Origin: a phage
Direction: 5' to 3' (one strand)
DNA length: 64,000 nt
NCBI GenBank assembly: GCA_011939005.1
Contig: GCA_011939005.1_4858.1
Part shown: positions 50,481 through 64,000 of the stretch, one piece after another
Layout: each line of letters opens with the position of its first letter
Position numbering within the stretch: position 1 is the first letter of the stretch
Program-made: the position numbers and the translations under genes
Notes under the pieces: model-generated
What the model saw: only the letters and a program-made list of their open reading frames with translations
Database searches by the model: none
Told to the model about the DNA's origin: nothing

Positions 50481-50690
50481 ATGAGCATTCGTGAAATCAC
50501 CGCAGGCAGCGACGTTTCTGGTCTGGTAGAAGCAGGCACCGTTCAGGTTTCTGGACTGAGCACCGTTACCGAAGTTACCGAAGCGCTGGCTAAGAAAGCC
50601 GAAGCTGAAGGCGGCGTAGCATTTAAAGTTACCGCTTGCGGCGGCAACAACAAAATGTTCGGCAACGCCATCTATTACGTAAACGCGTAA
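50481..50690 (+). CDS. DUF1471 (YdgH/BhsA/YjfY)-like small protein without signal peptide
   Basis: 69 aa; VSGLSTVTEVTEALAKKAEAEGGVAFKVTACGGNNKMFGNAIYY fits the enterobacterial DUF1471 pattern; an in-frame stop lies immediately upstream of the ATG; RBS ggagataag. Confidence 0.6.
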   Translation: MSIREITAGSDVSGLVEAGTVQVSGLSTVTEVTEALAKKAEAEGGVAFKVTACGGNNKMFGNAIYYVNA

Positions 50691-50703: not shown

Positions 50704-50762
50704 AAAAAAAGATATAGGTACCCTACTCCCGTTGGGAGTAGGGTTTACCTTTTATTTTTTTC
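50704..50762. terminator. bidirectional rho-independent terminator
   Basis: Stem accctactccc / gggagtagggt (50720-50744) flanked by A-run and ttaccttttatttttttcg. Confidence 0.7.
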
Positions 50763-52014
50763 GTGCTTTGTAGCGATGCATTTCAACAAATGGCTTACCC
50801 CAAGCCCCGAAAGGCCCGACGATTGCCTGCGCGTCGTTTACCAAATTCTGGTTATACCAACGCGCGTTCCCCAACAAAAAGTTTTCCCGGTCGAAGAATG
50901 TGGTATTAAAGACCCACTCCCCTTCTTCCCAGGTCGGCCAGTACCCTACACATTTACCAATACGGTTAAAGATAGGACCTAGCGTCTTCTTCCCATCTGG
51001 GTCAGTCGGGTCTTTTAAATAGAACCGGCCCCAGATAGCGTTGTGGCTTATTCCGTGAATCTCTTTTTCGAGATACGGGTTGTCTATCGTAAAGATAAAC
51101 GAGGATTCGTGCGTCAGCAACGCTTTTAACGTTTCTGAGTTACGAATACGTTGAACGGACGTAGGCGTACTTAAATCACCTACACCGATGGCGTCCCAAT
51201 CGTAATAGCGACGGGTTTCCAATACAATCTTCGCCACGCTAAGGTTTGGCAGACTCAGCATAATCGCACGGTCGCTGAAATAGCCCTGCGGTGGCAACCA
51301 ATGCAGAATACCCCCGATGACGAACCCAACGGTTTTCCCTGTAATGGAATCGGGTAAGGTCAACATTAACGAAGAATAGTAATCTCGCGTAGTATCGAGT
51401 TTGTTCATCGTTAAACCGGATATGGGGTAAGTCTTCACTTTACCAATATTCGCCATCACTAGACAGCCGATGTCGGGTGTGTTGGCTCTCCGCACGATGT
51501 TACCAGCACCGGTTAAGCGAACGCCCACAGGGTCAGATTGGTGCGGTACCCACTGACCGTTGATGTTGTACAGTACCCCGGTACGGTATTTTTCTTTCCA
51601 CTCATCGTCGCAGACTACAACAACGTCGTGCGCATCATCAGGGTTGAAGTCCTGAGTGTAATGGTACCCAGGAGGGCACAGGTGCGTTTCTACGGGCACA
51701 TCTGCATTAATAGACTGGTAATGTGCCTCAGCGAATTCTAACTTCGGTAGGCCTTTCCCAAGCGTTGGAATTGCGATTCCTGACTTGGTGTTTAACCAAT
51801 CTTGCAACGTGTCCGTACGGTTTTGTAAATCAGCCAGGTGATACTGGCTATAGAAGGTATATTCGGCACCTAGTGCTTCTAGTCCTACTTCGAAAAAGTG
51901 GTAGTTAGCACAAAGGGTATTTAAGGGCTGCGTGACATCGATGGTTCCCCAAGTTCGGGTGTCTCGAGAGAAGCCAAAAGCGCTGTCGGCCCGCACTTGA
52001 TAAGCAGTAGTCAC
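50752..52014 (-). CDS. hypothetical protein, divergent from tail-fibre operon
   Basis: 420-aa ORF with GTG start at 52014 and RBS gagga; no motif recognised. Confidence 0.55.
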   Translation of the reverse strand: MTTAYQVRADSAFGFSRDTRTWGTIDVTQPLNTLCANYHFFEVGLEALGAEYTFYSQYHLADLQNRTDTLQDWLNTKSGIAIPTLGKGLPKLEFAEAHYQSINADVPVETHLCPPGYHYTQDFNPDDAHDVVVVCDDEWKEKYRTGVLYNINGQWVPHQSDPVGVRLTGAGNIVRRANTPDIGCLVMANIGKVKTYPISGLTMNKLDTTRDYYSSLMLTLPDSITGKTVGFVIGGILHWLPPQGYFSDRAIMLSLPNLSVAKIVLETRRYYDWDAIGVGDLSTPTSVQRIRNSETLKALLTHESSFIFTIDNPYLEKEIHGISHNAIWGRFYLKDPTDPDGKKTLGPIFNRIGKCVGYWPTWEEGEWVFNTTFFDRENFLLGNARWYNQNLVNDAQAIVGPFGAWGKPFVEMHRYKARKK

Positions 52015-52081
52015 TGGCTGTTTCCTCTAAGGATTCGGGTCATAGTATGAACTCGACGCCCTCAGAGAAAAGGAGTGTAAA
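52015..52081. promoter_or_regulatory. divergent promoter region of the tail-fibre operon
   Basis: 67-bp gap between divergently oriented genes; contains TAGTATGA, also present upstream of the plus-strand gene at 49341. Confidence 0.35.
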
Positions 52082-55000
52082 ATGGCTGTCGTCCCTGACC
52101 CGCACTATCAAGAACCGGGGAATATGCAGACCGGTGAAGCGGTAACGCCGATCGGTACTAAGTACCGGATGCTGTTCCCCGCACACGCCCCCTTTTATAC
52201 CACATCCCTGGTGGTCAAGAGTGGCGGCAAGAAATTAACATTAGGTGATGATTACGTCATCACCCATGCGTACGTTACGGGCATGGCACGCACTGGCCAT
52301 GTTTGTCACGGCGGCGTGTGGATTACCAACCCGAAATATCAGAGTGGCTTTACACTCGATTACCACGCAATTGGCATCGGTGAAGCCACTGCAGAAATGA
52401 TCGCCGCAGAACGAGAAGCGAATAAAGATCGCTATCCCGTGGACTGCCAATGGGATAACGTCATTGGGGATTTATATTTCCCACCGGTCGATATTAAGTT
52501 CGATTGGGAAAACTGGCGTGGCGAATCTGAGTTGATGGAAGCCATTGTTGCGGTTGGTGCTAAGCTCGGTGAAGCGATCAGTCGCGTTGACCCGATTGCT
52601 CGTAACACGTTAGACCTTCAATATCGCGCCGGCGTCACGCTTATCACGTCCGAGCAGTATGCGACGTACGACGGTACTGGCGGCTACACGTATAACGCGT
52701 CACGTCGTCGTTATTCGTTATCTTACCAGAACACGACATTCGATGCGTATTCGTTAGCGGTAAAATACCGTTTACCGAGCATTCCACCGGAAACAACGTT
52801 GAACCCAGGCGAGTTGATCGATTGGATGCTCTGTTACGCAAACGGTGGGACAAGTATCCTGCGTCTTCAGTTGAAGCAACGCGCGATTTATCTTACCTTA
52901 ACGACAGCGATTGGTTCCGGTTCGTCCAATTACAGCTATACGTTGACGACTGGCCTGACTGATACCGAGTTGGCGGGTGAGGTTGAGTTTAGCGTGGTCA
53001 GACGCGAAGGTAACGGCGTTTACGACATCACCGTTAAAACAAGCAAGCAAACCGTTAACTACAGCTTTAACGTTGACAACCCACCGAGCGAATTTGCACC
53101 AGGGTATCAGAAAACTGATGTCGCAAAATGGTTGAAGTTTAAATCGGGCGTCAACCTAAACTGGTGGGCAGGTGAGAACGATTACGTCCAGATTCGTTCA
53201 TTACCAGGCGCACCGGCACCTGACGTTAACAATGACGTGTACCAGCTGCTGGTAAAATATCACCAGATTGTCGATAAACTGTACCGTGATGCACCGGCAC
53301 ACACACACGTGCCGCGCAAGGATAACCCGCATCGCGATTCGTGGGGCGCAATCCGTGCTTTGGAGAATAACGGTATTGCTTCGGACGCGACACTGGTATA
53401 CGGAAAAACGCAACCGCAGCTGACAGATTACGTTAACAATCTGTTGCCGAAACTGTCAACGCTGGCGAATAAGCTTTTACGTTTACCGGCGGCTGCACAG
53501 TCTATCATCGGCACGTTCGGCATGAAGCCTGGCCTGACTTCAATAACGTCAGCAGTGGGTACCGATGAGTCTGAAGGCGTGGGTGCACAATTCACGGTTG
53601 ACCCGAGGGTTATCCGTTTTATTGGCCGCGATTCGCAAACCGTTAACGCCGGGAACAATCCGATTACATGGCAAGGTGGGGCTAACCAACTCATCCTTTA
53701 TCCGGATTCCCGTGGATTGGAGTTCAACGGTAAGAAACTGTTGGACCCTACTACGGTCGGGCCGTACCTGCCGGGTAACGAATCAGGTGGTGATGGACTG
53801 TTTTACGGAACATCCACAGCTACTGTAACCATTAACGGTAACGGTATTCAGTCTGTTCCGTTCATTTGTACCTTTGTTCCACCGGAGTCCGATGACCTTG
53901 GCCTGATGGCTGTCCGTTTGTTGGCTACTGAATTCGGCGATCGTGAGGACTTGGCCGCAACGCCGGCACTCATCAAGAAATTGGATCAGCAGTTTACGGG
54001 CAAGTTGGTTGCCGTTAAATCGTACATCAACGACATGCCACTGACGAGTTCTATTTACATCGATAAAACTAACTTCGGCTTATCGAACGTACAGAACATC
54101 CCAGATGTACAATTGCCGATTTCCCCGCTCCAACAAGCTGAGCTGGACAAGTATGCAGTCGTCGGTCACAAACACACTTCTGCCGCGTTCGGGATTAAGC
54201 GTGCAACAACGACGGAGTTCGGTTTAGTACAGTTCGGCACCGCGGTTGACGATGCCACTCTGGCATTAGACGGTGGTGAGGTCATCCGACAGGCGGACGC
54301 CATCACAGAGATAGAGAAGGTTGCGAAGACAGTCGACTCTGGTGCTTCAATCAACATTATTCGTTACGGTTTACCCGGCACGGATATCATTGAAAACGGC
54401 ATCACTTACACCGACTGGATGGTTACTATTAAAGCGAACGATTATTTCGTTGGTCGCGAGTACAAAGTACCTCTCTCCACATTTAACTTGGCGGAGCTAT
54501 TCCCAGCGACGCACGAAGATGCTGAGTTTGGCGTGTATGTTGACGCGGCGGGCGATGACGGCAAGTACATTATCTACGAAAATCCAAACACGGCAGAAAC
54601 TGAGACGATGACCAAAATAGGTTCCATCATCACCAGTGAAACCGGTGTGGTTTTTGTAGAAATCCGCAACGTGACGCGTTTAGGTGAGTTCCGTGAATTA
54701 GGCGAGCATATCGAGGATGATAACGCCCATATTCGTCGGGGCATGACGCAAGCTGAATTCGGATTTACTTACGGTACGGGCGGGCCTGTGTGGTCCACGG
54801 GCGCACCGGGTACAAAACGTATAGATGCTGATTGGCGTTACGCGCAGGCTAGCGGCTATACGCCTATGTTGAAAGCGGACTACGATCCGGCTGCTGATAA
54901 ATGGACGTTTAAAACAACCAGTTTATCTGTAACCGATTATCGTTTTGTCCACAACACGTTCCCGATGTTCCAGAATAACGGCATTACCGCAACGTGGACA

Positions 55001-55795
55001 CCTTTAACCGCAACAGCGGACAGTGTGCTAGAAACGGTAATTGGGTGTTGTCATCACTCGGCCACGTTCATGCACCGTATTTCTGTACTCGTCGCACGCA
55101 CCGCAGGACGTATTACCACTCCAGGCGGTGTGAGCACGTATGCGGGAATCGCGGTTAACTACGGACGTGCTGCGCAGGTTGTTATTGGCTTGAACGGCGT
55201 TACTGGTTCCGGCCATGACTGGACGGCACTTAATCCATCGGTGCGTTTCAGCCACGCGCGAACAGCGGACGGTATTTCGTTCGTGGGAACGATTAACATC
55301 GATTCCAAAACGATTAACTTTGAGCTGACGCTAACCGCGACAACAAAGACGCTGAAATACACCTTGCAGTCGACCGGCGAGTCGTGGACTGAGGATTTGT
55401 CTACCCGTCTCCGTCCTGACTATATCGACTTGACGAAACTGATTACCGATCCGAGTACGCCGATTTATCACGGCGTGGGTGGTTTGTTTAGTTCCGACAC
55501 AGAAGCGCGTTTGACCTACGCTAACCTGAACACGATGCCGACAAAGAATCGTTATTACGCCACGTTCCTTGACTATGCGATTAACTATTCCGGCTTAAAC
55601 CGCGCAAGATTCTTTACTGGCGTGGTGGATGCAGGTTCAACGATTAATGAGATGAACAGCGCGATGAGCAACTATTCATACAGTTCGTTCCGACCAGTGG
55701 ATACAGGTAAAATTCCACTGGTGGCACACCCATCCAAGATGATGACGTTCAATCCGAAAAACACGTCAGCTCGAACACTTATTATTCGTGATTAA
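52082..55795 (+). CDS. long tail-fibre protein (1237 aa)
   Basis: ATG with RBS aaggag; fibre-repeat motif HTSAAFGIKRATTTEFGLVQFGTA of the T4 gp34/gp37 type; Thr/Gly/Asn-rich beta-type composition. Confidence 0.75.
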   Translation: MAVVPDPHYQEPGNMQTGEAVTPIGTKYRMLFPAHAPFYTTSLVVKSGGKKLTLGDDYVITHAYVTGMARTGHVCHGGVWITNPKYQSGFTLDYHAIGIGEATAEMIAAEREANKDRYPVDCQWDNVIGDLYFPPVDIKFDWENWRGESELMEAIVAVGAKLGEAISRVDPIARNTLDLQYRAGVTLITSEQYATYDGTGGYTYNASRRRYSLSYQNTTFDAYSLAVKYRLPSIPPETTLNPGELIDWMLCYANGGTSILRLQLKQRAIYLTLTTAIGSGSSNYSYTLTTGLTDTELAGEVEFSVVRREGNGVYDITVKTSKQTVNYSFNVDNPPSEFAPGYQKTDVAKWLKFKSGVNLNWWAGENDYVQIRSLPGAPAPDVNNDVYQLLVKYHQIVDKLYRDAPAHTHVPRKDNPHRDSWGAIRALENNGIASDATLVYGKTQPQLTDYVNNLLPKLSTLANKLLRLPAAAQSIIGTFGMKPGLTSITSAVGTDESEGVGAQFTVDPRVIRFIGRDSQTVNAGNNPITWQGGANQLILYPDSRGLEFNGKKLLDPTTVGPYLPGNESGGDGLFYGTSTATVTINGNGIQSVPFICTFVPPESDDLGLMAVRLLATEFGDREDLAATPALIKKLDQQFTGKLVAVKSYINDMPLTSSIYIDKTNFGLSNVQNIPDVQLPISPLQQAELDKYAVVGHKHTSAAFGIKRATTTEFGLVQFGTAVDDATLALDGGEVIRQADAITEIEKVAKTVDSGASINIIRYGLPGTDIIENGITYTDWMVTIKANDYFVGREYKVPLSTFNLAELFPATHEDAEFGVYVDAAGDDGKYIIYENPNTAETETMTKIGSIITSETGVVFVEIRNVTRLGEFRELGEHIEDDNAHIRRGMTQAEFGFTYGTGGPVWSTGAPGTKRIDADWRYAQASGYTPMLKADYDPAADKWTFKTTSLSVTDYRFVHNTFPMFQNNGITATWTPLTATADSVLETVIGCCHHSATFMHRISVLVARTAGRITTPGGVSTYAGIAVNYGRAAQVVIGLNGVTGSGHDWTALNPSVRFSHARTADGISFVGTINIDSKTINFELTLTATTKTLKYTLQSTGESWTEDLSTRLRPDYIDLTKLITDPSTPIYHGVGGLFSSDTEARLTYANLNTMPTKNRYYATFLDYAINYSGLNRARFFTGVVDAGSTINEMNSAMSNYSYSSFRPVDTGKIPLVAHPSKMMTFNPKNTSARTLIIRD

Positions 55796-55807
55796 GGAGA
55801 TTTTTGA

Positions 55808-58800
55808 ATGAAAACGTATCCTTACGATCCTCGGGGTGTAAATCCTGAGTGTCACTTCATCGAGGAACGTATCATCGACTCCGACAATCCTAACGATCGG
55901 GTGGTGATGCTAGATCATCGCCCGTTTTTCGAAGGATTGGTGGTAAGGCTCGCCGGCTCGTCCATACCGCTTACCCGCGGGACGGACTATGAGCTGGAGT
56001 ATGCTTTAACACCGTTGGACGACTCGGTGACGACCCCGGTGTTTTGCGGGGTGCATCTTATTAACCCTAAACTGCGTGGTGCGGTGGTCTTTGAAGGCCA
56101 GATGCTCGGGGGTACGTTTTACAGTGGTTTGATTGAGATGTTGGATGAGCTAGTTAAGGCACTCAACAATCCAACGGCTGCAGATTGGCTGCTTTTAGGT
56201 AATCGACCTTCCCTGTACCCAGCCACCCCTGCAGCGGTGGCTTGGTCAGACATGCTGAATAAAAAGTATGTTGCCTCTGCAGTGCATGATGTGGAGTTAG
56301 ATGCCGGGGCGGCCAACGAGCAGATTCGTGAAAAGCTTACTGAGCTGAAAGATGCGGTTTTGGGCTTAGGAACTGAAATCGCCGCATTTAACTACCCCGG
56401 ACACATTGCGTCGACTAACCCTCATGGGACTACCGCGGCGCAGGCCGGTGCGCATCCTGTCAACCTGAAAACGCCAGATACTTTCCTGGCGTATGGAAAG
56501 ACGTTGCGTCAGTTAACCAGCGAGGTCCGTGCACTGGGTCTGCAACAATCGGATATCGACAAGTACATTTCTAAATGGGTATCGAAAGAATCCAAAGGGG
56601 TGTTTAATGCGACGATATCCGGTACTCGTGCCCTGTTCCGTTCTCCTGCTGGTGAATCCGAAATTGTGTTCTCTGCTGAGGCATTCACTCTTAAATCTAA
56701 TGGCTCTGTTGTGTTGGCGTGTGGGTATGCCGACACTACTGGAACCGTCCGGTTTATGGAGTGGAAAGCAGGCATCAATACATTACGTATTGAGTCGACT
56801 GGCAGTGCCTTGGGGATGGATAAGCTGACGCTTAATGGTACGACGTTACTGACCACAACTGCTCTCATGGGCTATCAACAAGACCCTGGTACCGGCGGTG
56901 GTACCGTTGACCCGGATGACAACAAACTGTACATTAGCGGGGTGAACGGCATCACTTTCACGGGTAAAGGGTCAAAAGCCGATCCCGTCACCGGGAAGGT
57001 CACAGCCAAACCCGCGACGACCTCTGAACCAGGCGTTGTGACGCTGACTGATAAGCCGAGCGATGTAGTCAAAGGGCAAGCAGCCACCCCGTCGGCGCTT
57101 TTGCCGTATGAGGGCGACCTGTCTTCGTACGTCAGGAAGACAACGCTGCTGAATAACCAGCCGATGAACACTGGTAGTCGAACGCTGACGAAAAAGGATT
57201 TAGGTTTAGACTTGGCTGATAACACAGCTGACGTCGATAAACCACTTTCTGATGCGTTGGCAGAAGCAGTTACCGGTCTTAGTGATAAAGGTCACCATCA
57301 CAACTTCGCTGATTTACAGATTCCAACAGCCTCTCAAACTGTGCCAGGTATCGCACGATACTCTACCAACTTAAACGGCTTGGCGGATAATCGCGGCGTT
57401 ACCCCGAATGTTCTGAACGATCTGTCAAAACGTTTAGACGTAGTTGCAGCTGCGCTAGCAAACGCGAAAGAGGATTCCGTGACCGATTTTGCCGCTGTGC
57501 GTGGTAAGACTTGGACTGTGGGATCTACACGTACCACCCTCGCCGTAACGGATTTGAATTATTTCTATCTGTTAAATGGTGCACGTAAAGAGGGGACGGT
57601 ATCTGGTTCGATAGACCTGCAAACCACCCCGATGTTCCAGTGGTTCTCTCCAGATAACCGTATGGAAAGAACGTGGCAGAACGCGGTAATTAATATCGGT
57701 GACGGTATTGATTTTAGTGGGTTTGAGGTTGCCGTCCCGGAAACGAACTACGGTGCGCAGATTGGGTTAACGGCAACCGGCATGGGTGACTTATCGGTTG
57801 TTAACCTTTTAGCAAAAACGTGGGTTCGTTGCGATACAGGTAAACTACGTATTTGGGTTCGTGGCGGTGGTGCTGTTTCTGTTTATCTGGACGGTGTAAT
57901 TATCGGTGCGGGTATTACAGAAGCGGGGTATCTGGAGGCGACTGTCAAAGAGGGGTGGAAGCAACATTGCCTGGCGTTTCGTGCGGAATGTAACAATAGC
58001 GCGAAAGCAGCTGCTATACGCTTCACCATTTACGATGGTGATTACCCGGTTGCGGTGTCGGACAAAAACACCAAAGTTGCCCGCCTGCAGGAGTTTGTTA
58101 AGACCGCGAACGGTTTACGACATTATCTTTACGTGAACATGATAACCAACGCATTGTATTCACGTGCGGAACCCATTGTGGACACGGAAGGTATTAACCT
58201 GGAGCGTGGGTACATTGGTTACATTGATGTACCCGAGACGGGATTGGTTGCAGGTACGACTTACGAGTTTGAAACGACGTTTGATTTTGGCATGGCGTCC
58301 GAACTTAAACGGCACTTCGAAACACGTCTGGCGCACGGAGTGAGTAATGCCGACTGGTCGTTGACGGATAACCCAAAAATGTTACCGCTAAACAAAGTCG
58401 ATCCGTTGCCTAAACAGTGGCTTTATGCGTACCCTAATAGTCCAGTTTCTGGTAACCACTATATTCGATTAGACCGAGGGTTATTCGATTATAAATTTGA
58501 TAGTACCATTTCAAGCCTAGTGTTTGTTGGAGCGGTTGTCTCCACAGAAAGCGCATCACCGTACTGCTGGTTTACACCAAGCAACCCGAAAGAAAAAGGG
58601 ATGGCGACGTTTGAAGGTTCTGTGGTGGTCGATGTTGATTTGTCGGAAGCACAAACAGTTCGCGTTCGCGATATCACATTAAACTTCATGGCCCCGTCTG
58701 CAGATGATAAAAGCAAGACCAGGGTACTGAGATGGAGTGGCAATCGTCCAGAATTGAATTGTGGCTTCATCACGTCTCCTTATAACCAAGCAACTGGAGG

Positions 58801-59938
58801 CATCATCTCGACCACGCAGGGCAGTGTTACAAATAAGGTGCTTGAAAATCCGAGGGTAATTAAAAACCTGACGAGCCAATCTACCGAGTGTTTAGATTTT
58901 CTTTCGGTTCATACCGATAGTGAGCTTGCGCCGCTTGGAGATCGTTGGCTTGTACGTTATCGATACATTGTTGATACGCAGGTACTGCGCATCTCAATGG
59001 TTTCTAAGTTGATAGCCAATCCGCTGGTGCAGGTTTACGAAATGGAATACGACATTCCGTTTGATGCGATCGATTACTTTAAAGGTGGGGCGCTAGCCAT
59101 CCACGTTTCCGGTATTGAAACTGGAGACAACGTGACTATTAACCACGGTTTGATGCAGCCGATCATCTCAGATGTGGATATAAATCGTTTCCATTATTTA
59201 CGTTCACTGTTTGAGTCGTATATTGAAAGGACACCAGATAGACAGTCTTCCGGCCACGAGGAGATGACAGTAACAACGGTACCTTTTGCGTCATTTGGAG
59301 ATAACGTTGATCACCCGGTTACGGAATACATCACGATGTCTGCTGCAAGTGAGGGTTATCCGGAACTTGCACCGAACGGTAAACTCCCAGCGCCGTTTTA
59401 TAAAGGGCTGCAGAAACGTGGTGCTCCGCTACTTGAGTCGGCTCCTGCCGACTATACGTCTAACGGTGGTGAATGGAAGTACGGCTTTATGCGGACTTAT
59501 CGCCCGACTCAAACTGAGCGTTTTGTGTCGGTAAATGGGACAATGCTCTCTAACTACCCCGGATATATCGTCGTGGGTAGTGAGAAAATTCCGGGTAATG
59601 TTATACCTTTCAGTGCGTCGACAACAGCTGTTCGGATATCCAGGACTCTTGCCCGCACGAAACCGATGCAGCCAATTCACATCGTGTTCGTGCCTCCGGA
59701 AGGTTCTGTGCCGCCGCTGCAAGCGAAGTTCACTATTAATGGTGTGGGTAGTAGTGGTAATCCGATGTTCGTGATTACTGAAACGACACCGGTGGAACTT
59801 CGCACGGGTGGCGAGACGATTCTCATTGAGAAGCGTAATCCATTCCACATCCCCACCAGGACATGGGATTGGATTTTACAAACGTTGGATACTGAACGTA
59901 GAAACGAAGGCAACAACTCGGGTGAGTGGGCCTCTTAG
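55808..59938 (+). CDS. long tail-fibre protein (1376 aa)
   Basis: RBS aaggaga; fibre repeats KPATTSEPGVVTLTD and TASQTVPGIARYSTNLNGLADNRGVTPNVLND; His cluster GHHHNF. Confidence 0.75.
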   Translation: MKTYPYDPRGVNPECHFIEERIIDSDNPNDRVVMLDHRPFFEGLVVRLAGSSIPLTRGTDYELEYALTPLDDSVTTPVFCGVHLINPKLRGAVVFEGQMLGGTFYSGLIEMLDELVKALNNPTAADWLLLGNRPSLYPATPAAVAWSDMLNKKYVASAVHDVELDAGAANEQIREKLTELKDAVLGLGTEIAAFNYPGHIASTNPHGTTAAQAGAHPVNLKTPDTFLAYGKTLRQLTSEVRALGLQQSDIDKYISKWVSKESKGVFNATISGTRALFRSPAGESEIVFSAEAFTLKSNGSVVLACGYADTTGTVRFMEWKAGINTLRIESTGSALGMDKLTLNGTTLLTTTALMGYQQDPGTGGGTVDPDDNKLYISGVNGITFTGKGSKADPVTGKVTAKPATTSEPGVVTLTDKPSDVVKGQAATPSALLPYEGDLSSYVRKTTLLNNQPMNTGSRTLTKKDLGLDLADNTADVDKPLSDALAEAVTGLSDKGHHHNFADLQIPTASQTVPGIARYSTNLNGLADNRGVTPNVLNDLSKRLDVVAAALANAKEDSVTDFAAVRGKTWTVGSTRTTLAVTDLNYFYLLNGARKEGTVSGSIDLQTTPMFQWFSPDNRMERTWQNAVINIGDGIDFSGFEVAVPETNYGAQIGLTATGMGDLSVVNLLAKTWVRCDTGKLRIWVRGGGAVSVYLDGVIIGAGITEAGYLEATVKEGWKQHCLAFRAECNNSAKAAAIRFTIYDGDYPVAVSDKNTKVARLQEFVKTANGLRHYLYVNMITNALYSRAEPIVDTEGINLERGYIGYIDVPETGLVAGTTYEFETTFDFGMASELKRHFETRLAHGVSNADWSLTDNPKMLPLNKVDPLPKQWLYAYPNSPVSGNHYIRLDRGLFDYKFDSTISSLVFVGAVVSTESASPYCWFTPSNPKEKGMATFEGSVVVDVDLSEAQTVRVRDITLNFMAPSADDKSKTRVLRWSGNRPELNCGFITSPYNQATGGIISTTQGSVTNKVLENPRVIKNLTSQSTECLDFLSVHTDSELAPLGDRWLVRYRYIVDTQVLRISMVSKLIANPLVQVYEMEYDIPFDAIDYFKGGALAIHVSGIETGDNVTINHGLMQPIISDVDINRFHYLRSLFESYIERTPDRQSSGHEEMTVTTVPFASFGDNVDHPVTEYITMSAASEGYPELAPNGKLPAPFYKGLQKRGAPLLESAPADYTSNGGEWKYGFMRTYRPTQTERFVSVNGTMLSNYPGYIVVGSEKIPGNVIPFSASTTAVRISRTLARTKPMQPIHIVFVPPEGSVPPLQAKFTINGVGSSGNPMFVITETTPVELRTGGETILIEKRNPFHIPTRTWDWILQTLDTERRNEGNNSGEWAS

Positions 59939-59940
59939 GA

Positions 59941-60013
59941 CGGACTGCCTACGGGCGGGTAGTCCGTAGGTAAACCGCCCTTCCGTTATTGGGAGGGCGG
60001 TCTCCGTTTTATT
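59941..60013 (+). terminator. tandem hairpins / partial terminator between fibre genes
   Basis: Stem accgccct / agggcggt (59974-60001) followed by ctccgttttatt; a second imperfect hairpin at 59942-59970. Confidence 0.45.
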
Positions 60014-60033
60014 ACAGATTAGGAGTGTTTGCA

Positions 60034-63000
60034 ATGCCGAGAGAAGATGCGGCGCAGTTTAACGGTACCCTCAGTACCGCTACTTACCCGAACCGTTATT
60101 CGACGGTCATTCCCGTCGAAGCACCGTTCTATCGCATCGGGTTAACGTTAACCGTTACCGATAAAACAACCGGAACCAAACGCAAGTTAATAGAAGGTCT
60201 TGATTATTTCTTAGGACATTACTTCCAGGAATTAGCCGAGGCTGAGAACGATGCAATATACGGCAGCATAATGCTGCTGAACGCCACAGAGGTAGAATAC
60301 GAGTTATTGTCGGTTGGTCGACAGTATCGCATCCCTGCTTCTGAAATCGGCAAGTATCTGGTTAAGACGGATATGAAAGACCCGCGCAACTGCGATTGGT
60401 CTGAGCTGATGAAATATCCGCCGATTATCTCGCCAATCGACCCGCCAAAAGATCTCGAAGAAGCCATCCTTCGCGATGAAATCGTAAAGGCGTTGGAAGA
60501 TATCCGTCTGGGTATTTTAGAACGTGCCCACGAACTGGATGAGGCTTTTGCGGAAGTTACTGATTTGATTTATCAGAACGGTAAAAAGGTGTTTGATGAC
60601 GAAATGTATCAACACCACCTGATTAAAAATGCACATGGTTACACCTGCGGTGACATTGGCGCTCTCCCGGTACTCGGCAAAGCCGTAGATGCGACTAAGG
60701 CATTCGGACGTACCCTGGCAGAGCTAGTGACGTTAATGTCTACCAGTGGCATCCAACAGAAACACGTTGACATGCTTCTGGATAATACCCTGGGTGATTT
60801 ACTGGGCCGTATGCGTGTTCTGAATAACGACGCGATTACGTTCCAAACAACGTCTGGTCACGTTATCAGCATGAAGGGTGAGAAGTTCATCATCACCTCG
60901 ACAAAACCGCTGGTATTAAAAGCTGACCAGGATAACAACGAACCGGGTATCGCTACGGAGTTCAGTGCTGGTCTGAACACGCTTTGGGTTCACTCGGGTA
61001 AAGCAGGTGACAAGTGGGGCGCTTATGATGCAGGTGTGCTTGCACCTGTGTATAACAGCGTGTATCTCGTTACGCCGGATATGGTTAAGATGTACTTGAC
61101 CTCGGTGAAGATACTTCCAGCAAACGCCTACTTCAAGTCCAGCGACACGTTGAAGATTTACGGCTCTGGTAAAGAAACAAACAAACTTTACATGAATGCG
61201 GAGCTGCCTGCAGCAACCACAACTGTGCAGGGTTTGTTTGCGATTACTAACCTTTCGGCGTCCGCTGCAGCATCCACAGCGATTTCCCAAAAAGCTGTTA
61301 CTGACTTGAAGAACAAACTCGACGGATATGTGGACGACACGTATACAGTCAACGGTAAAGGGTTTGTATTAGATTCAAACGGGCAGATGCATCTGACCTT
61401 AACCGCGGCAGATTTCGGTATTGAGAAGATGAACAATACCGGGCCGCTGGAGAAACCGGTTACTAATGCGTTGCGCACCGTGCTATCTGGCAAAGCGCTT
61501 ACAACGCACACCCACACCATTGCCGATCTCGATAACGTGCCGTACGCATCCACGTCTGTTACAGGTTTGGCTAAACTGTGGGATGCTATTGACACCACAA
61601 CAGATAAGATGGTTACTTCGCGTCAAGGCTTCTTGCTTGAACAGAAGATTGACACGCTGAATGACAAGATTGCTACGTTATTACCGGCGTGGACTGTCGG
61701 CGGATCATCGTACGGCAACAATAACTTCTTGCCTATACCTGTCCAGGGGAACTACGAAGGGTATACCAAAAACCAAACCTGGCAGAAAGGTTTGGCGCGT
61801 TACGAGTCTGGTAAGGTTTACTCGCTCCGTAACGGTTCTAACGGGAACCCACCAGGTGACTGGGCTATCTATTACGCCTATGCTGATGTGTCGCCAAGCA
61901 ATACGCTGGAAAATATGCAGCAGACGTCCGTACGCTATCGACCCGCTGGAATGTCGGCGTATCCTGGGGTGAATCTGGTTGCTATTGTGATTACCGGTAC
62001 CGATGCAATGATCTGCTTAGGCAGTGACGGTGCGTACTACCTGGTCATCTTCGATGGGACGATTGACCATGCAAAACATCATCGTGTTGTTAAAGTGGTG
62101 TTGGGTGATTACAAGAACGGTAATGGTGCGGGCACAGTAACGACAGCACCGTGGGCTCCAAACGCTTCTACAGACGATTTGATTGTTTGTAATGAACGTG
62201 TCTACCTGTTGCGTACGGTGCTTACCTCCGGTAACTATTTCGTGAGTATGCGTAGCATCGCACTCAACGAACTTAATCTGGGTGGCAGCAACACGTTTGT
62301 GGCGGATGCGTTAACAGGCGGGATATTAACGTCGGGTGAAAACGTTTATCTGCGACAGGGACAGAAACGTGCACCTTCCGATGCGCTCCCAGCACCAGTT
62401 ACACAGATCTACGCAGACGCGTTAGCGAAGTGGAACAATGCAACCAACTTTGTACATGGTCCTGAGTGTAATCACGCGATTGGTGTTGATGGGCTGAGCT
62501 TTCGTGTTGGTTTAACTCCAACGGTTTGGTTTGCTTCTACTACAGGGCAAACTATTAACTTTAAACAATGGGTGTCAAGCTTTGTTGTCGACTGTAGCGC
62601 ATTAACGGTAACGCTGGAAGGGGCTGATCGATTCCCTATTGTGGCTGATCTTACCACGGTTCGTTATAACGGTGGTACTGAGATTGGGATTCCAAGCCGG
62701 AAGTGGGGCGAAGGTCAAGCTAATAACCGAACCTTTGCAACATCGCAAGACAAGTATATCGTTTCGCAGGGACATGCAGGCGATCGCGACCTAATGCCAA
62801 TTGTCACGATTACCACGTTAGACGACGGTGTGAGTTGGTACGAGTACCTGTCGTGCGACTACAACTTCACTGCCAGAAGTTTTAGTGCGGTAATGTTAAA
62901 CCAAGGTCGTGGTTCTATCTACGAGCTAGGTATGGCGTATCCACTGACTCTGGGAGCGAATTCCAGACTTATCTGGTTGTCACAGCCACGTTCCCGTTTG

Positions 63001-64000
63001 GCAATTGAAGTTGAGTTTGATCCGAACACCACTTACTCAGGTAAGGTGGGGTATGGCCCAACTAACAATCGTCGTGTAGTAGATTCTATCACGTATGAGA
63101 ATCTGTCGCAGATGTGCCACATTGTTACACCGGCGTCGCCTGGTACAGAGTTAAACGGCTGGTATTGCACAGGGCCAGAAACATTCCCTTACCACAACGT
63201 TTCTGGCACTTTCACGATTCATGCCGATCGGTTGACGCTGTCACAGGCCGAATGGGATAAGATGAAGCAGATGATCATCGACGGTGCACCGGCAGGCGCT
63301 GCGAATGGTTATGCTTCGGAATTTATCCTTGCCGCAAATAACGCAGGAAAGGCATTGTTCTCCGTTTGGTTCATCGGCATTGGTACGGCCACACCGCTCA
63401 CGTTAGCACAAGTAGCATGTACGCGTACTGTGAACAACGTTAACGTGTTGGATATCTACTACTTTACACTGAAACCAACAATCAGCAACGGGCAGGTAAC
63501 ATTCCCCGCAGCGATATTGGCTTTGTTTGACTTCTATAACAACCTCGACTATAGCTTGAACTATGCTACGTTGGGTGAGATAACGGGAGGAAAAACACGC
63601 CGGCCGGGACAACCTACCTTGGTGTCAGTAGATGGTACTCAGTTCGGGTTGTATCTTCCACACACGTTAACCTTGCGCCAAATTGGCGACTTGGGTGCGC
63701 TTAACTACGCTGTTGGTCTTACGCTGTCTAATGGTACTTGGACGCGTTCTTCTGCTCCACACGGCGTTGGACGTATGGCACCGTCACACACTCCAGTCAG
63801 TCCAGCTTATCTGGCACATCGCGATCAAGTGATGTTACACAACTCATCTCTCGACTACGTCTATTGTGGTGGTATCGCAACGCCGTCGAGAGATTTTGTC
63901 GCGGCTCCTAATTTTAGTGGCCCGACTGAATCGGTTGTCATTGCTGGTGTGGAAACAGCTGAAGGTTGGCTGGTATATGTGACTGAGGAAGTTGACCTGC
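60034..64000 (+). CDS. long tail-fibre protein (>1322 aa), 3' partial
   Basis: ATG at 60034 with RBS aggag; frame open to window end; fibre repeats AATTTVQGLFAITNLSASAAASTAISQKAVTD and His motif LTTHTHTIADLD. Confidence 0.7.
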   Translation, partial: MPREDAAQFNGTLSTATYPNRYSTVIPVEAPFYRIGLTLTVTDKTTGTKRKLIEGLDYFLGHYFQELAEAENDAIYGSIMLLNATEVEYELLSVGRQYRIPASEIGKYLVKTDMKDPRNCDWSELMKYPPIISPIDPPKDLEEAILRDEIVKALEDIRLGILERAHELDEAFAEVTDLIYQNGKKVFDDEMYQHHLIKNAHGYTCGDIGALPVLGKAVDATKAFGRTLAELVTLMSTSGIQQKHVDMLLDNTLGDLLGRMRVLNNDAITFQTTSGHVISMKGEKFIITSTKPLVLKADQDNNEPGIATEFSAGLNTLWVHSGKAGDKWGAYDAGVLAPVYNSVYLVTPDMVKMYLTSVKILPANAYFKSSDTLKIYGSGKETNKLYMNAELPAATTTVQGLFAITNLSASAAASTAISQKAVTDLKNKLDGYVDDTYTVNGKGFVLDSNGQMHLTLTAADFGIEKMNNTGPLEKPVTNALRTVLSGKALTTHTHTIADLDNVPYASTSVTGLAKLWDAIDTTTDKMVTSRQGFLLEQKIDTLNDKIATLLPAWTVGGSSYGNNNFLPIPVQGNYEGYTKNQTWQKGLARYESGKVYSLRNGSNGNPPGDWAIYYAYADVSPSNTLENMQQTSVRYRPAGMSAYPGVNLVAIVITGTDAMICLGSDGAYYLVIFDGTIDHAKHHRVVKVVLGDYKNGNGAGTVTTAPWAPNASTDDLIVCNERVYLLRTVLTSGNYFVSMRSIALNELNLGGSNTFVADALTGGILTSGENVYLRQGQKRAPSDALPAPVTQIYADALAKWNNATNFVHGPECNHAIGVDGLSFRVGLTPTVWFASTTGQTINFKQWVSSFVVDCSALTVTLEGADRFPIVADLTTVRYNGGTEIGIPSRKWGEGQANNRTFATSQDKYIVSQGHAGDRDLMPIVTITTLDDGVSWYEYLSCDYNFTARSFSAVMLNQGRGSIYELGMAYPLTLGANSRLIWLSQPRSRLAIEVEFDPNTTYSGKVGYGPTNNRRVVDSITYENLSQMCHIVTPASPGTELNGWYCTGPETFPYHNVSGTFTIHADRLTLSQAEWDKMKQMIIDGAPAGAANGYASEFILAANNAGKALFSVWFIGIGTATPLTLAQVACTRTVNNVNVLDIYYFTLKPTISNGQVTFPAAILALFDFYNNLDYSLNYATLGEITGGKTRRPGQPTLVSVDGTQFGLYLPHTLTLRQIGDLGALNYAVGLTLSNGTWTRSSAPHGVGRMAPSHTPVSPAYLAHRDQVMLHNSSLDYVYCGGIATPSRDFVAAPNFSGPTESVVIAGVETAEGWLVYVTEEVDL

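What the first reader, a model, noticed from the sequence alone, without database searches (positions are those of the whole stretch)
52082..64000. Three consecutive giant tail-fibre genes with T4 gp34/gp37-type repeats
ORFs of 1237 aa, 1376 aa and >1322 aa follow one another on the plus strand, each with fibre-repeat motifs (ATTTEFGLVQF; ATTSEPGVVTLTD; AATTTVQGLFAITN..AVTD) and His clusters (GHHHNF; HTHTIADLD). Together they would build an unusually long or branched fibre; a two-hairpin structure between the second and third gene suggests regulated read-through.
Basis: partly seen in the sequence, partly recalled or inferred. Interest (0 to 1): 0.4.

Follow-up and report, generated by a model that had tools for sequence, protein, structure and literature searches.

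The report
Known jumbo-phage baseplate fibre paralogs
The three giant genes are the already-described baseplate fibre proteins (gp170, gp169, gp168) of a Salmonella jumbo phage of the SPN3US type; they are related to phiKZ gp131, not to the T4 long tail fibre, and a conserved folded RNA lies between the second and third gene.

Summary
ORFs of 1237 aa, 1376 aa and >1322 aa (cut by the window end; 1727 aa in SPN3US) lie head to tail on the + strand, with the quoted motifs and a two-hairpin spacer.

The window is an SPN3US-like jumbo phage (94-98% DNA identity). The genes are orthologues of SPN3US gp170, gp169 and gp168, published as "paralog family C". Mass spectrometry placed these in the tail, and they were called baseplate/tail-fibre candidates through distant similarity to phiKZ gp131.

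I confirmed that link: an N-terminal-module profile hits phiKZ gp131, gp133, gp134 and gp135 (E 1e-40 to 1e-18). The divergent upstream gene is a phiKZ gp130 homologue.

No homology to T4 gp34-37 was found. The "repeats" are one or two copies per protein of a generic fibre motif. The C-terminal regions diverge quickly, and that of gp169 is built of lectin/CBM-like beta-sandwiches.

These are most likely parallel paralogues sharing one baseplate anchor, not serial fibre segments.

The spacer RNA is a three-way junction conserved with covariation in ten phages of four genera. Its function is untested.

Verdict: an ordinary, already known gene set. The RNA element and a fourth paralogue (gp167) are minor additions.

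The parts
50752..52014 (-). Divergently transcribed 420-aa gene, orthologue of SPN3US gp171 and homologue of phiKZ gp130. In phiKZ, gp130 is the baseplate protein beneath which the fibres dock.
   Evidence: ORF list. Annotation of SPN3US. phmmer against phiKZ gp130 gives E 6e-16 and against Ralstonia RP12 ORF071 gives 2e-10. The gp130(-)/gp131(+) arrangement in phiKZ is the same. Role of gp130 from PMC13250141.
52038..52052 (.). Conserved near-palindrome GGTCATAGTATGAAC in the 67-nt divergent spacer. It is a candidate pair of back-to-back late promoters, with a TATG on each strand, about 33 nt before the ORF1 ATG.
   Evidence: Nearly invariant in 7 phages including CR5, where the flanks have diverged. 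Only 6 matches of NTATGAMC occur in 64 kb; one more lies 37 nt upstream of the 836-aa structural ORF at 41848. The promoter role is inference, based on my recollection of the phiKZ late-promoter TATG consensus.
52082..55795 (+). ORF1, 1237 aa, orthologue of SPN3US gp170. Layout: gp131-like N-domain (aa 6-193); hypervariable insertion (aa 194-382); fibre-shaft module with HKH and ATTTEFGLVQF (aa 383-730); shared beta-module with ELGEHIEDDNAH (about aa 775-895); divergent C-terminus.
   Evidence: Profile A4 matches aa 6-193 (8e-33) and aa 383-1086 (3e-102). Identity by domain. C-terminal homologues.
55808..59938 (+). ORF2, 1376 aa, orthologue of SPN3US gp169. Layout: N-domain and shaft (aa 1-560); lectin/CBM-like beta-sandwich region (aa 561-830, with a lectin sequence match at about aa 617-760); shared module with ELKRHFETRLAH (aa 767-849); fast-diverging C-terminus (aa 851-1376).
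59927..60042 (+). Conserved structured RNA in the ORF2/ORF3 spacer, a three-way junction. Outer helix 59936-59944 (includes the TAG stop) pairs with 60003-60011. Hairpin 1 is 59946-59972 and hairpin 2 is 59974-60001. The U-run is 60007-60013. SD AGGAG is at 60021-60025 and the ATG at 60034.
   Evidence: Fold z = -5.3. Terminator scan. Alignments and folds of 10 phages. A covariance model finds it only at this orthologous spacer. 91.7% of cells are paired against 41-49% in slid controls, and 16 pairs have double changes against 0-5. No Rfam family.
60034..64000 (+). ORF3, first 1322 codons of the orthologue of SPN3US gp168 (1727 aa). Layout: gp131-like N-domain (aa 10-165); long helix (aa 141-188); shaft with two A-T-x-x-x-x-G motifs flanking D-F-G-I...N-T-x-x-x-x-K-P and HTH (aa 189-568); divergent C-terminal region cut by the window end.
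   Evidence: AF2 model of aa 1-570: pLDDT 75.7, with aa 8-125 above 90 and a helix at aa 141-188. Profile A4. tblastn.

Best explanation
The region encodes three of the four tandem 'gp131-like' baseplate fibre paralogues of an SPN3US-type (phiKZ-related) jumbo myophage. They are the orthologues of SPN3US gp170, gp169 and gp168; the fourth, gp167, lies just past the window end.

Each protein has four parts:
1. The same ~170-aa N-terminal beta-domain followed by a long helix. In phiKZ these parts of gp131, gp133, gp134 and gp135 sit together under the baseplate protein gp130 and form a helical bundle at the fibre base. Here the gp130 homologue (gp171) is encoded divergently right upstream.
2. 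A ~350-aa shaft module with generic fibre motifs (HxxxxxNPH, PxATxxxxGxxxL twice, DxGLxxxxNTxDxxKPxS, HxH).
3. A shared beta-module with an ELxxHxxxxxAH motif.
4. A long, rapidly diverging all-beta C-terminal part that carries receptor-binding domains. In gp169 at least two of these are lectin/CBM-type beta-sandwiches.

So the three proteins are parallel arms sharing one anchor, not serial segments of one T4-like long fibre. They most likely give the phage several different receptor-binding tips around the baseplate; SPN3US is reported to use flagella as receptor.

The genes are probably transcribed together from a conserved TATG-type palindromic promoter motif upstream of ORF1. A conserved three-way-junction RNA between ORF2 and ORF3 most likely acts as a leaky terminator and/or an mRNA processing or stabilising structure.

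Shown: gene identity, paralogy, gp131-family N-module, synteny, lectin-like fold, RNA conservation and covariation.
Taken from the literature on near-identical orthologues: virion/tail location.
Inferred: hetero-oligomeric assembly, receptor binding, promoter, role of the RNA.
For: Identity:
- 94.7% DNA identity to SPN3US and 97.9% to phage JN03 over all 11.9 kb.
- Annotation maps the ORFs to SPN3US_0170, 0169 and 0168.
- PHROGs 7557, 8078 and 7449 match end to end.

Virion/tail location and the 'paralog family C, baseplate/tail fiber candidate' label: PMC5694885, PMC10052503, PMC5105663.

Paralogy: ORF2 against ORF3 over 560 aa gives E 5e-23; ORF1 is weaker and carries an insertion.

gp131 family:
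- Profile of 39 diverse N-modules against phiKZ gp131 aa 9-179 scores 124.7 bits, E 1.8e-40. It also gives gp135 6e-32, gp134 2e-22, gp133 1.5e-18, and RP12 ORF072/073 about 2e-48.
- SPN3US gp167 matches at 2.5e-18, and gp171 against phiKZ gp130 gives 6e-16.
- The gene order in phiKZ is identical.
- phiKZ cryo-EM model: six gp131-like N-domains plus a six-helix bundle per fibre, 12 fibres, docked under gp130 (PMC13250141).
- phiKZ gp131-135 tolerate no transposon insertions (PMC12676376).

Structure: the AF2 N-domain is confident (pLDDT above 90 for aa 8-125) and is followed by a 48-residue helix.

Receptor-binding character:
- C-terminal parts diverge far faster than N-terminal parts. For ORF2, identity to Asesino falls from 75% to 28% along the protein, and aa 851-1376 is only 79% identical to SPN3US while aa 1-850 is 93-100%.
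- Flagella as SPN3US receptor: PMC11428620.

RNA.
Promoter motif.
Similar spectral counts per kDa for gp169 (1.41), gp168 (1.08), gp170 (1.00) and the 12-copy portal (0.93): Table 1 of PMC5694885.
Against: - The hetero-hexamer model comes from phiKZ, where the fibre base was modelled by docking AlphaFold3 predictions into 4.4-4.6 A maps and is called a 'candidate' complex. Nothing here tests oligomeric state.
- In phiKZ one paralogue is long and three are ~460 aa. Here three are giant and one is 400 aa, so the stoichiometry may differ.
- Foldseek found no solved structure resembling the N-module. The library ends 2026-04-08, before the phiKZ paper.
- No C-terminal domain of ORF1 or ORF3 was modelled.
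- No sequence similarity to the gp131 propeller was found.
- The lectin-like assignment has low sequence identity (8-15%), and sugar-binding residues were not examined.
- For the RNA, the U-run starts 5 nt after hairpin 2, which is atypical for an intrinsic terminator. Late genes of these phages are transcribed by a phage RNA polymerase whose termination signals I could not check.
Confidence: 0.8

Rival explanations
1. One reading: a T4-like long tail fibre in which the three giant proteins are serial segments (as gp34, gp36 and gp37 are), built of gp34/gp37-type repeats and giving an unusually long fibre.
For: The proteins are large and consecutive, and they contain an A-T-x-x-x-x-G motif and HxH. 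One similar string exists in T4 gp34 (ATTAIRGFV at aa 824), and gp37 has eight HxH.
Against: - BLASTP against T4 gp34, gp35, gp36 and gp37 gives E > 0.6, and the family profile scores negative bits.
- No Pfam or NCBIfam fibre family is hit.
- Each protein has only 1-2 motif copies.
- All three start with the same baseplate-anchor domain, which serial segments would not need.
- No gp35/gp36-like connector genes lie between them.
Confidence: 0.04
2. Three separate homotrimeric fibres. Each paralogue trimerises on its own and docks at its own site on the baseplate through the shared N-domain, giving three (with gp167, four) independent fibre sets with different receptor specificities.
For: - The shaft motifs are shared with homotrimeric fibres such as Mu gpS and gp12.
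- C-termini are independent and fast-evolving.
- Abundances are roughly equal.
- phiKZ itself has a gp131 trimer in the model, and the hetero-hexamer is only a candidate.
Against: - phiKZ density shows six gp131-like N-domains and a six-helix bundle at each of two nearly identical docking sites, fitted with four different paralogues.
- Spectral counts per kDa similar to the 12-copy portal fit about 12 copies of each better than 18 or 36, though this is only a rough measure.
Confidence: 0.3
3. The spacer RNA is not a terminator but an RNase III/RNase E-type processing and stability element. It would split the gp170-gp169 message from the gp168-gp167 message. Alternatively it is a translational element that presents the ORF3 Shine-Dalgarno sequence in a loop.
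For: - The outer helix (9 bp) stacked on an 11-12 bp hairpin gives about 20 bp of duplex.
- The U-run is offset from hairpin 2.
- gp168 must be translated from RNA that passes the element, because only 20 nt separate the U-run from the ATG.
- gp168 is as abundant as gp169.
- A small downstream helix with the SD in its loop has 2 compensatory pairs.
Against: - Hairpin 2 plus the U-run is the best terminator-like site in 14 kb.
- With the outer helix formed, the U-run follows a helix directly.
- No cleavage data exist.
- CR5 does without the element, having a 4-nt spacer.
Confidence: 0.3

Closest known systems
Salmonella phage SPN3US gp170, gp169, gp168 ('paralog family C')
   Same: Orthologues with the same lengths (1237 and 1376 aa; 1727 aa for the third) and the same order and neighbours. 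Protein identity per domain is 93-100% across ORF1, ORF3 and ORF2 aa 1-850. They are MS-verified tail proteins and were called baseplate/tail-fibre candidates.
   Different: This isolate differs most in the ORF2 C-terminus (aa 851-1376), which is 79% identical. Published work lists three family members; the profile here also picks up gp167.
Pseudomonas phage phiKZ gp131 / gp133 / gp134 / gp135 (peripheral baseplate fibre complex)
   Same: Homologous N-terminal ~170-aa domain (E 1e-40 to 1e-18), with the HxxxxxNPHxVT motif after it. Both have tandem paralogues directly downstream of a divergent gp130/gp171 homologue. The phiKZ set appears essential by Tn-seq (no insertions), and gp168 is designated 'expected essential'.
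   Different: The phiKZ proteins are 457-771 aa, whereas these are 1237-1727 aa with an added ~350-aa shaft module and very large C-terminal regions. The seven-bladed propeller of gp131 was not detected by sequence, and the modelled gp169 C-terminus is lectin-like beta-sandwich instead.
T4 long tail fibre proteins gp34-gp37
   Same: Large fibre proteins encoded in a row in a myophage; short A-T-x-x-x-x-G and HxH strings occur in both.
   Different: No detectable homology. T4 segments join end to end through gp35/gp36 and attach by gp34 only, whereas here every protein carries the anchor domain.
Generic phage fibre shaft motifs (Mu gpS 5yvq, AP22-type 4mtm, gp12 9f4b; actinophage minor tail proteins; Pfam PTR PF12789)
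   Same: PxATxxxxGxxxL and DxGLxNVxNTxDxxKPxS motifs align with these proteins. Scores: E 2e-3 to 2e-2 against PDB; 2e-4 to 1e-2 by tblastn; PHROG tail families down to 5e-7; PTR E 0.009, below the Pfam cut-off.
   Different: Only short local matches. In other proteins the 60-70-aa unit is repeated 10-20 times, whereas here it occurs once.
Intrinsic terminators and T7-type RNase III sites between phage late genes
   Same: GC-rich hairpins followed by a U-run, located between two co-oriented structural genes.
   Different: This is a three-way junction whose outer helix pairs the stop-codon region with the bases just before the U-run. The U-run is 5 nt from hairpin 2. There is no Rfam family, and the element is confined to one orthologous spacer.

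Membership tests
gp131-like baseplate fibre paralogues of phiKZ-related jumbo phages (SPN3US paralog family C) | N-terminal gp131-like domain (~170 aa) | tested here: met
   The A4 profile matches phiKZ gp131 aa 9-179 (124.7 bits, E 1.8e-40), gp135, gp134 and gp133. The same profile matches ORF1 aa 6-193, ORF2 aa 1-605 and ORF3 aa 10-568.
gp131-like baseplate fibre paralogues of phiKZ-related jumbo phages (SPN3US paralog family C) | Tandem paralogues next to a divergent gp130-type baseplate gene | tested here: met
   Window 50752-52014 (-) against phiKZ gp130 gives E 6e-16. The gene order is the same in phiKZ, RP12, CR5, Caitlin, Asesino and phiEaH2.
gp131-like baseplate fibre paralogues of phiKZ-related jumbo phages (SPN3US paralog family C) | Presence in the virion tail or baseplate periphery | not testable with these tools
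   Known only from the literature on 94-98% identical SPN3US orthologues (MS of wild-type and tailless particles) and on phiKZ gp131 (immuno-gold, cryo-EM).
gp131-like baseplate fibre paralogues of phiKZ-related jumbo phages (SPN3US paralog family C) | C-terminal seven-bladed beta-propeller. This is specific to gp131 and not shared by gp133-135, so it does not define the family. | tested here: not met
   Profiles of all three proteins find no PDB match to the gp131 C-domain. The ORF2 C-terminal model matches lectin/CBM sandwiches, not propellers. ORF1 and ORF3 C-termini were not modelled.
T4 long tail fibre proteins gp34 / gp37 | Sequence homology to gp34 or gp37, or to their Pfam families | tested here: not met
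   BLASTP E > 0.6 and profile bits -8.7 to -9.5. No Pfam or NCBIfam hit. No T4-like record among the 129 tblastn hits.
T4 long tail fibre proteins gp34 / gp37 | Arrays of repeated fibre motifs, or multiple HxH as in the gp37 needle | tested here: not met
   Each protein has one or two A-T-x-x-x-x-G motifs and one or two HxH, whereas T4 gp37 has eight HxH.
Lectin / carbohydrate-binding beta-sandwich domains (CBM67-like, galactose-binding-like, legume-lectin-like) | Beta-sandwich fold similar to known lectins or CBMs | tested here: met
Lectin / carbohydrate-binding beta-sandwich domains (CBM67-like, galactose-binding-like, legume-lectin-like) | Sugar-binding residues or measured binding | not tested
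   Binding-site residues were not compared, and binding cannot be measured here.
Intrinsic (Rho-independent) terminator | GC-rich hairpin directly followed by a U-run | tested here: inconclusive
   Hairpin 2 has 12 pairs, 8 of them GC, and is the top site in the scan. However, the U-run begins 5 nt after it. If the covarying outer helix forms, the U-run follows that helix directly.
Intrinsic (Rho-independent) terminator | Transcripts end there | not testable with these tools
   No transcript map of SPN3US-type phages was found.

The most novel reading that the evidence does not exclude
The ORF2/ORF3 spacer holds an undescribed RNA family, a covarying three-way junction found so far only in SPN3US-related jumbo phages (Seoulvirus, Erskinevirus, Machinavirus, Wellingtonvirus). 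It would work as a dedicated attenuator or processing site for transcripts of the phage-encoded RNA polymerase, and so set the ratio between fibre paralogues that must co-assemble into one hetero-oligomeric, multi-tipped baseplate fibre carrying three different giant receptor-binding arms.
Probability: 0.25. Interest if true: 0.4.

Novelty: already known. Interest (0 to 1): 0.2.

Why it matters
The gene set itself is ordinary for this phage group and already published, so the finding adds little.

The practical value is in correcting the annotation. These proteins should be read as gp131-family baseplate fibre paralogues with a common anchor, not as T4-like long-fibre segments. Their C-terminal parts are the likely host-range determinants of SPN3US-type phages, which are being tried for Salmonella biocontrol. 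The clearest case is the gp169 lectin-like region and its variable last 500 residues.

The N-terminal 550-aa module is very widespread: 7,895 clusters at 50% identity hit the profile at E <= 0.001, and 249 at E <= 1e-30. Yet no Pfam or NCBIfam model covers it.

The conserved spacer RNA is a small, testable handle on how late transcripts of phage-RNA-polymerase phages are ended or processed.

Tried and rejected
- Pfam, NCBIfam and Rfam scans gave nothing usable: only a sub-threshold PTR hit, and no RNA family.
- Single-sequence PDB searches for all three proteins and for the ORF1 insertion found nothing.
- Profile searches for the ORF1 and ORF3 families against PDB found nothing.
- Foldseek of the N-module model against PDB gave no match with E < 0.1. 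The phiKZ baseplate entry is probably too recent for the library.
- The search for homologous proteins with ORF1 returned only proteins at least 98% identical, which are useless for an alignment. The 50%-clustered representative search was used instead.
- A 99-sequence alignment failed, so a 39-sequence one was used.
- My first hand-written structure string for A6 was out of register and its counts are meaningless. It was replaced by the covariance-model alignment.
- The idea that the hairpin is a repeated genome-wide terminator type was rejected: the model finds no other copy in the 64-kb window or the flanking 20-kb loci.
- The idea that the phage sits in complete E. coli genomes was rejected.
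- The T4 homology was tested directly and rejected.

Full report
**What is in the sequence.**
Three long ORFs follow one another on the + strand:
- ORF1, 52082-55795, 1237 aa.
- ORF2, 55808-59938, 1376 aa.
- ORF3, from 60034 to the window end, 1322 codons without a stop.

ORF1 and ORF2 are 12 nt apart, with a GGAG before the second ATG. ORF2 and ORF3 are 95 nt apart.

**Where it comes from.**
- The 11.9-kb stretch is 97.9% identical to Salmonella phage JN03, 96-97% to two 'Escherichia' phages, and 94.7% to Salmonella phage SPN3US. All are ~240-kb jumbo myophages of the genus Seoulvirus.
- In the SPN3US record the three genes are SPN3US_0170, 0169 and 0168. The last is 1727 aa, and a 400-aa 'virion structural protein' gp167 follows it.
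- The same module is syntenic in Erwinia phages Asesino, phiEaH2, pEa_SNUABM_29 and Caitlin, in Cronobacter phage CR5 and in Salmonella phage SPAsTU. The module is a divergent gp171 gene, three giant genes, a gp167 homologue, then radical-SAM genes.

**What is already published.**
- Eighty-six SPN3US virion proteins were identified by mass spectrometry. gp169, gp168 and gp170 are listed as mid-abundance proteins of 'paralog family C, baseplate/tail fiber candidate'. Their spectral counts per kDa are 1.41, 1.08 and 1.00, next to 0.93 for the 12-copy portal (PMC5694885).
- They are strongly depleted in tailless particles. They were called likely tail fibre/baseplate proteins because of diverged homology to phiKZ gp131 (PMC10052503).
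- gp168 carries an amber mutation in a double mutant and is 'expected essential' (PMC5105663).
[quoted passage not shown] It proposes a hetero-hexamer of gp131x3 + gp133 + gp134 + gp135, with the gp131 propeller at the distal end (PMC13250141).
- phiKZ gp131-135 tolerate no transposon insertions (PMC12676376).

**My own tests of the family assignment.**
- The three proteins are diverged paralogues in their first ~560 residues. ORF2 against ORF3 is 23% identical with E 5e-23. ORF1 is weaker and interrupted by a ~190-aa insertion.
- A profile of this module searched against 1.84 billion cluster representatives gave 7,895 hits at E <= 0.001 and 249 at E <= 1e-30. About two thirds of the best 150 carry the whole 546-position module at the N-terminus of proteins of 500-2500 aa.
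- A profile of 39 such proteins (19-46% identical to ORF3) matches phiKZ gp131 residues 9-179 with 124.7 bits (E 1.8e-40). It also matches gp135 (6e-32), gp134 (2e-22), gp133 (1.5e-18) and two Ralstonia phage RP12 proteins (about 2e-48).
- The same profile matches SPN3US gp167 (51 bits, 2.5e-18). This suggests the set has four members, as in phiKZ, though that match is much weaker than those of the other three.
- The divergent upstream gene (window 50752-52014) is a homologue of phiKZ gp130 (6e-16), and phiKZ has the same gp130(-)/gp131(+) layout.
- AlphaFold2 on ORF3 residues 1-570 gives a confident N-domain (pLDDT above 90 for residues 8-125), followed by a 48-residue helix and a mixed shaft. 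No solved structure resembles it in a library ending 8 April 2026.

**The T4 claim.**
- Direct comparison with T4 gp34, gp35, gp36 and gp37 gives no BLASTP hit better than E 0.6. The family profile scores negative bits on gp34 and gp37.
- There is no Pfam or NCBIfam hit apart from a sub-threshold 'phage tail repeat like' match.
They align weakly with Mu gpS, a 4mtm fibre and a T4-type gp12 in PDB (E 2e-3 to 2e-2). They also align with actinophage minor tail proteins.
- In other proteins the central 60-70-aa unit is repeated 10-20 times. Here it occurs once.
- So these are fibre-type motifs, but not gp34/gp37 repeats and not an array.

**C-terminal regions.**
- Identity to orthologues falls steeply from the N-terminus to the C-terminus. 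For ORF2 against Asesino it goes 75%, 70%, 53%, 51%, 28%. For ORF3 against SPAsTU it goes 85%, 82%, 30%, 26%.
- Even against SPN3US, ORF2 residues 851-1376 are only 79% identical, while the rest of ORF2 is 93-100%.
- The ORF1 insertion (aa 194-382) is hypervariable and is absent in Caitlin.
- This is the usual pattern of receptor-binding proteins.
- A second shared module with an ELxxHxxxxxAH motif sits at different positions in the three proteins: ORF1 about aa 775-895, ORF2 aa 767-849, gp168 aa 1267-1424.
- The AF2 model of ORF2 residues 561-1376 has mean pLDDT 71, about 90 over the first 270 residues, and is all-beta.
- A sequence profile of the ORF2 family hits the same fungal lectins at E 2.4e-5.
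- SPN3US is reported to use flagella as receptor (PMC11428620). Which arm does this is unknown.

**The spacer RNA.**
- The 95-nt ORF2/ORF3 spacer folds far better than shuffles (z = -5.3).
- It is kept, with changed sequence, in ten phages of four genera. Each folds on its own into two adjacent hairpins followed by a U-run, just before the ORF3 Shine-Dalgarno sequence.
- A covariance model built from six sequences finds the element in five further phages (E 1.7e-11 to 8e-4). It finds it nowhere else in the 64-kb window or the flanking loci, and not in CR5, RP12 or phiKZ.
- On the model-guided alignment 91.7% of cells are paired, against 41-49% when partners are slid. Sixteen pairs change on both sides, against 0-5 in the slid controls. 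No shuffle of 500 reaches the observed values. The caveat is that this alignment is fitted to the model.
- Three helices covary: an outer helix joining the stop-codon region to the bases just before the U-run, hairpin 1 and hairpin 2.
- Only 20 nt separate the U-run from the ATG, and I found no promoter-like motif upstream of ORF2 or ORF3. ORF3 must therefore be translated from RNA that passes the element. gp168 is about as abundant as gp169.
- A leaky terminator or a processing/stability element is therefore more likely than a strong stop. 'Regulated read-through' remains possible but untested. CR5 manages with a 4-nt spacer.

**Transcription start.**
The 67-nt divergent spacer between gp171 and ORF1 contains GGTCATAGTATGAAC. 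This motif is nearly invariant in seven phages and is a perfect palindrome in CR5. It puts a TATG on each strand, 24-33 nt from the two start codons. A related motif lies 37 nt upstream of another large structural ORF. As I recall, phiKZ late promoters have a TATG consensus, so I read this as back-to-back late promoters. That reading is inference.

**Conclusion.**
The finding is a correct observation of an already described gene set. The best-supported picture is of parallel baseplate fibre paralogues with a shared gp131-type anchor and different, fast-evolving receptor-binding arms, lectin-like in gp169. They probably assemble as in phiKZ. The T4 analogy fails. The conserved three-way-junction RNA, the gp167 match to the N-domain profile and the palindromic promoter-like motif are small additions. 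I found none of them in the papers I read, though I did not search the literature for them specifically.

Noticed in passing
L002 22184-23386 (SPN3US gp167, about 50 nt beyond the end of gp168; outside the window): The 400-aa 'virion structural protein' gp167 also carries the gp131-like N-domain (51 bits, E 2.5e-18, aa 6-224). The module may therefore have four paralogues, matching phiKZ gp131/133/134/135, although published work lists three. The RP12 gene in the same position (ORF073) matches even better.
   Followed up: partly
window 52038-52052: Near-palindrome GGTCATAGTATGAAC between the divergent gp171 and ORF1 genes. It is conserved in seven phages while its flanks diverge, and it places a TATG on both strands. 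It is a candidate pair of back-to-back late promoters.
   Followed up: partly
window 50481-50690 (+) and 50720-50744: A 69-aa gene whose SPN3US orthologue (gp172) is annotated as a DUF1471 / BhsA-like protein and was detected in virions (7 kDa). This is an enterobacterial envelope-stress-type small protein in a phage particle. It is followed by a strong terminator-like hairpin facing the end of gp171.
   Followed up: no
proteins P0001-P0120: At least 120 proteins, each at least 98% identical to ORF1, are recorded, many of them on ~240-kb contigs of Salmonella enterica and E. coli draft assemblies. One (E. coli FHC86_RS08110, on a 241,068-bp contig) is 100% identical. No match exists in 5,426 complete E. 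coli genomes. SPN3US-type phage genomes seem to travel with bacterial isolates as whole-genome contigs, either as a carrier state or as contamination.
   Followed up: partly
window 52661-53227 (ORF1 aa 194-382): An insertion between the anchor domain and the shaft of ORF1. It is only 19-22% identical between SPN3US-type, SPAsTU, pEa29, Asesino and CR5, and it is absent in Caitlin (1021-aa protein). No homologue was found in PDB.
   Followed up: partly
window 58358-59935 (ORF2 aa 851-1376) and 59885-59921: The last 526 residues of ORF2 are only 79% identical to SPN3US, while ORF2 aa 1-850 is 93-100% identical. With more distant phages, DNA similarity resumes abruptly 20-50 nt before the ORF2 stop codon and runs through the spacer into ORF3. 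This suggests a recombination boundary at the RNA element.
   Followed up: no
family-wide; ORF3 aa 194-201, ORF1 aa 869-881, ORF2 aa 832-843: The 546-position N-module hits 7,895 clusters at 50% identity, yet no Pfam or NCBIfam model covers it. A His-rich motif HxxxxxNPHxVT follows the anchor domain and is repeated 3-6 times in RP12 and phiKZ gp131. A similar ELxxHxxxxxAH marks the shared C-terminal module. These may be metal sites, but this was not examined.
   Followed up: no
L008 9939-9944 (Cronobacter phage CR5): CR5 has the same three giant genes but only 4 nt between the second and third, so it lacks the structured RNA. The element is therefore not indispensable for making the fibre set.
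   Followed up: partly
GenBank records LR5359xx and MH221129: The gp168 orthologue is auto-annotated 'YomR' in many records. I suspect this rests only on the short NTxDxxKP fibre motif and is misleading as a name, but I did not check it.
   Followed up: no
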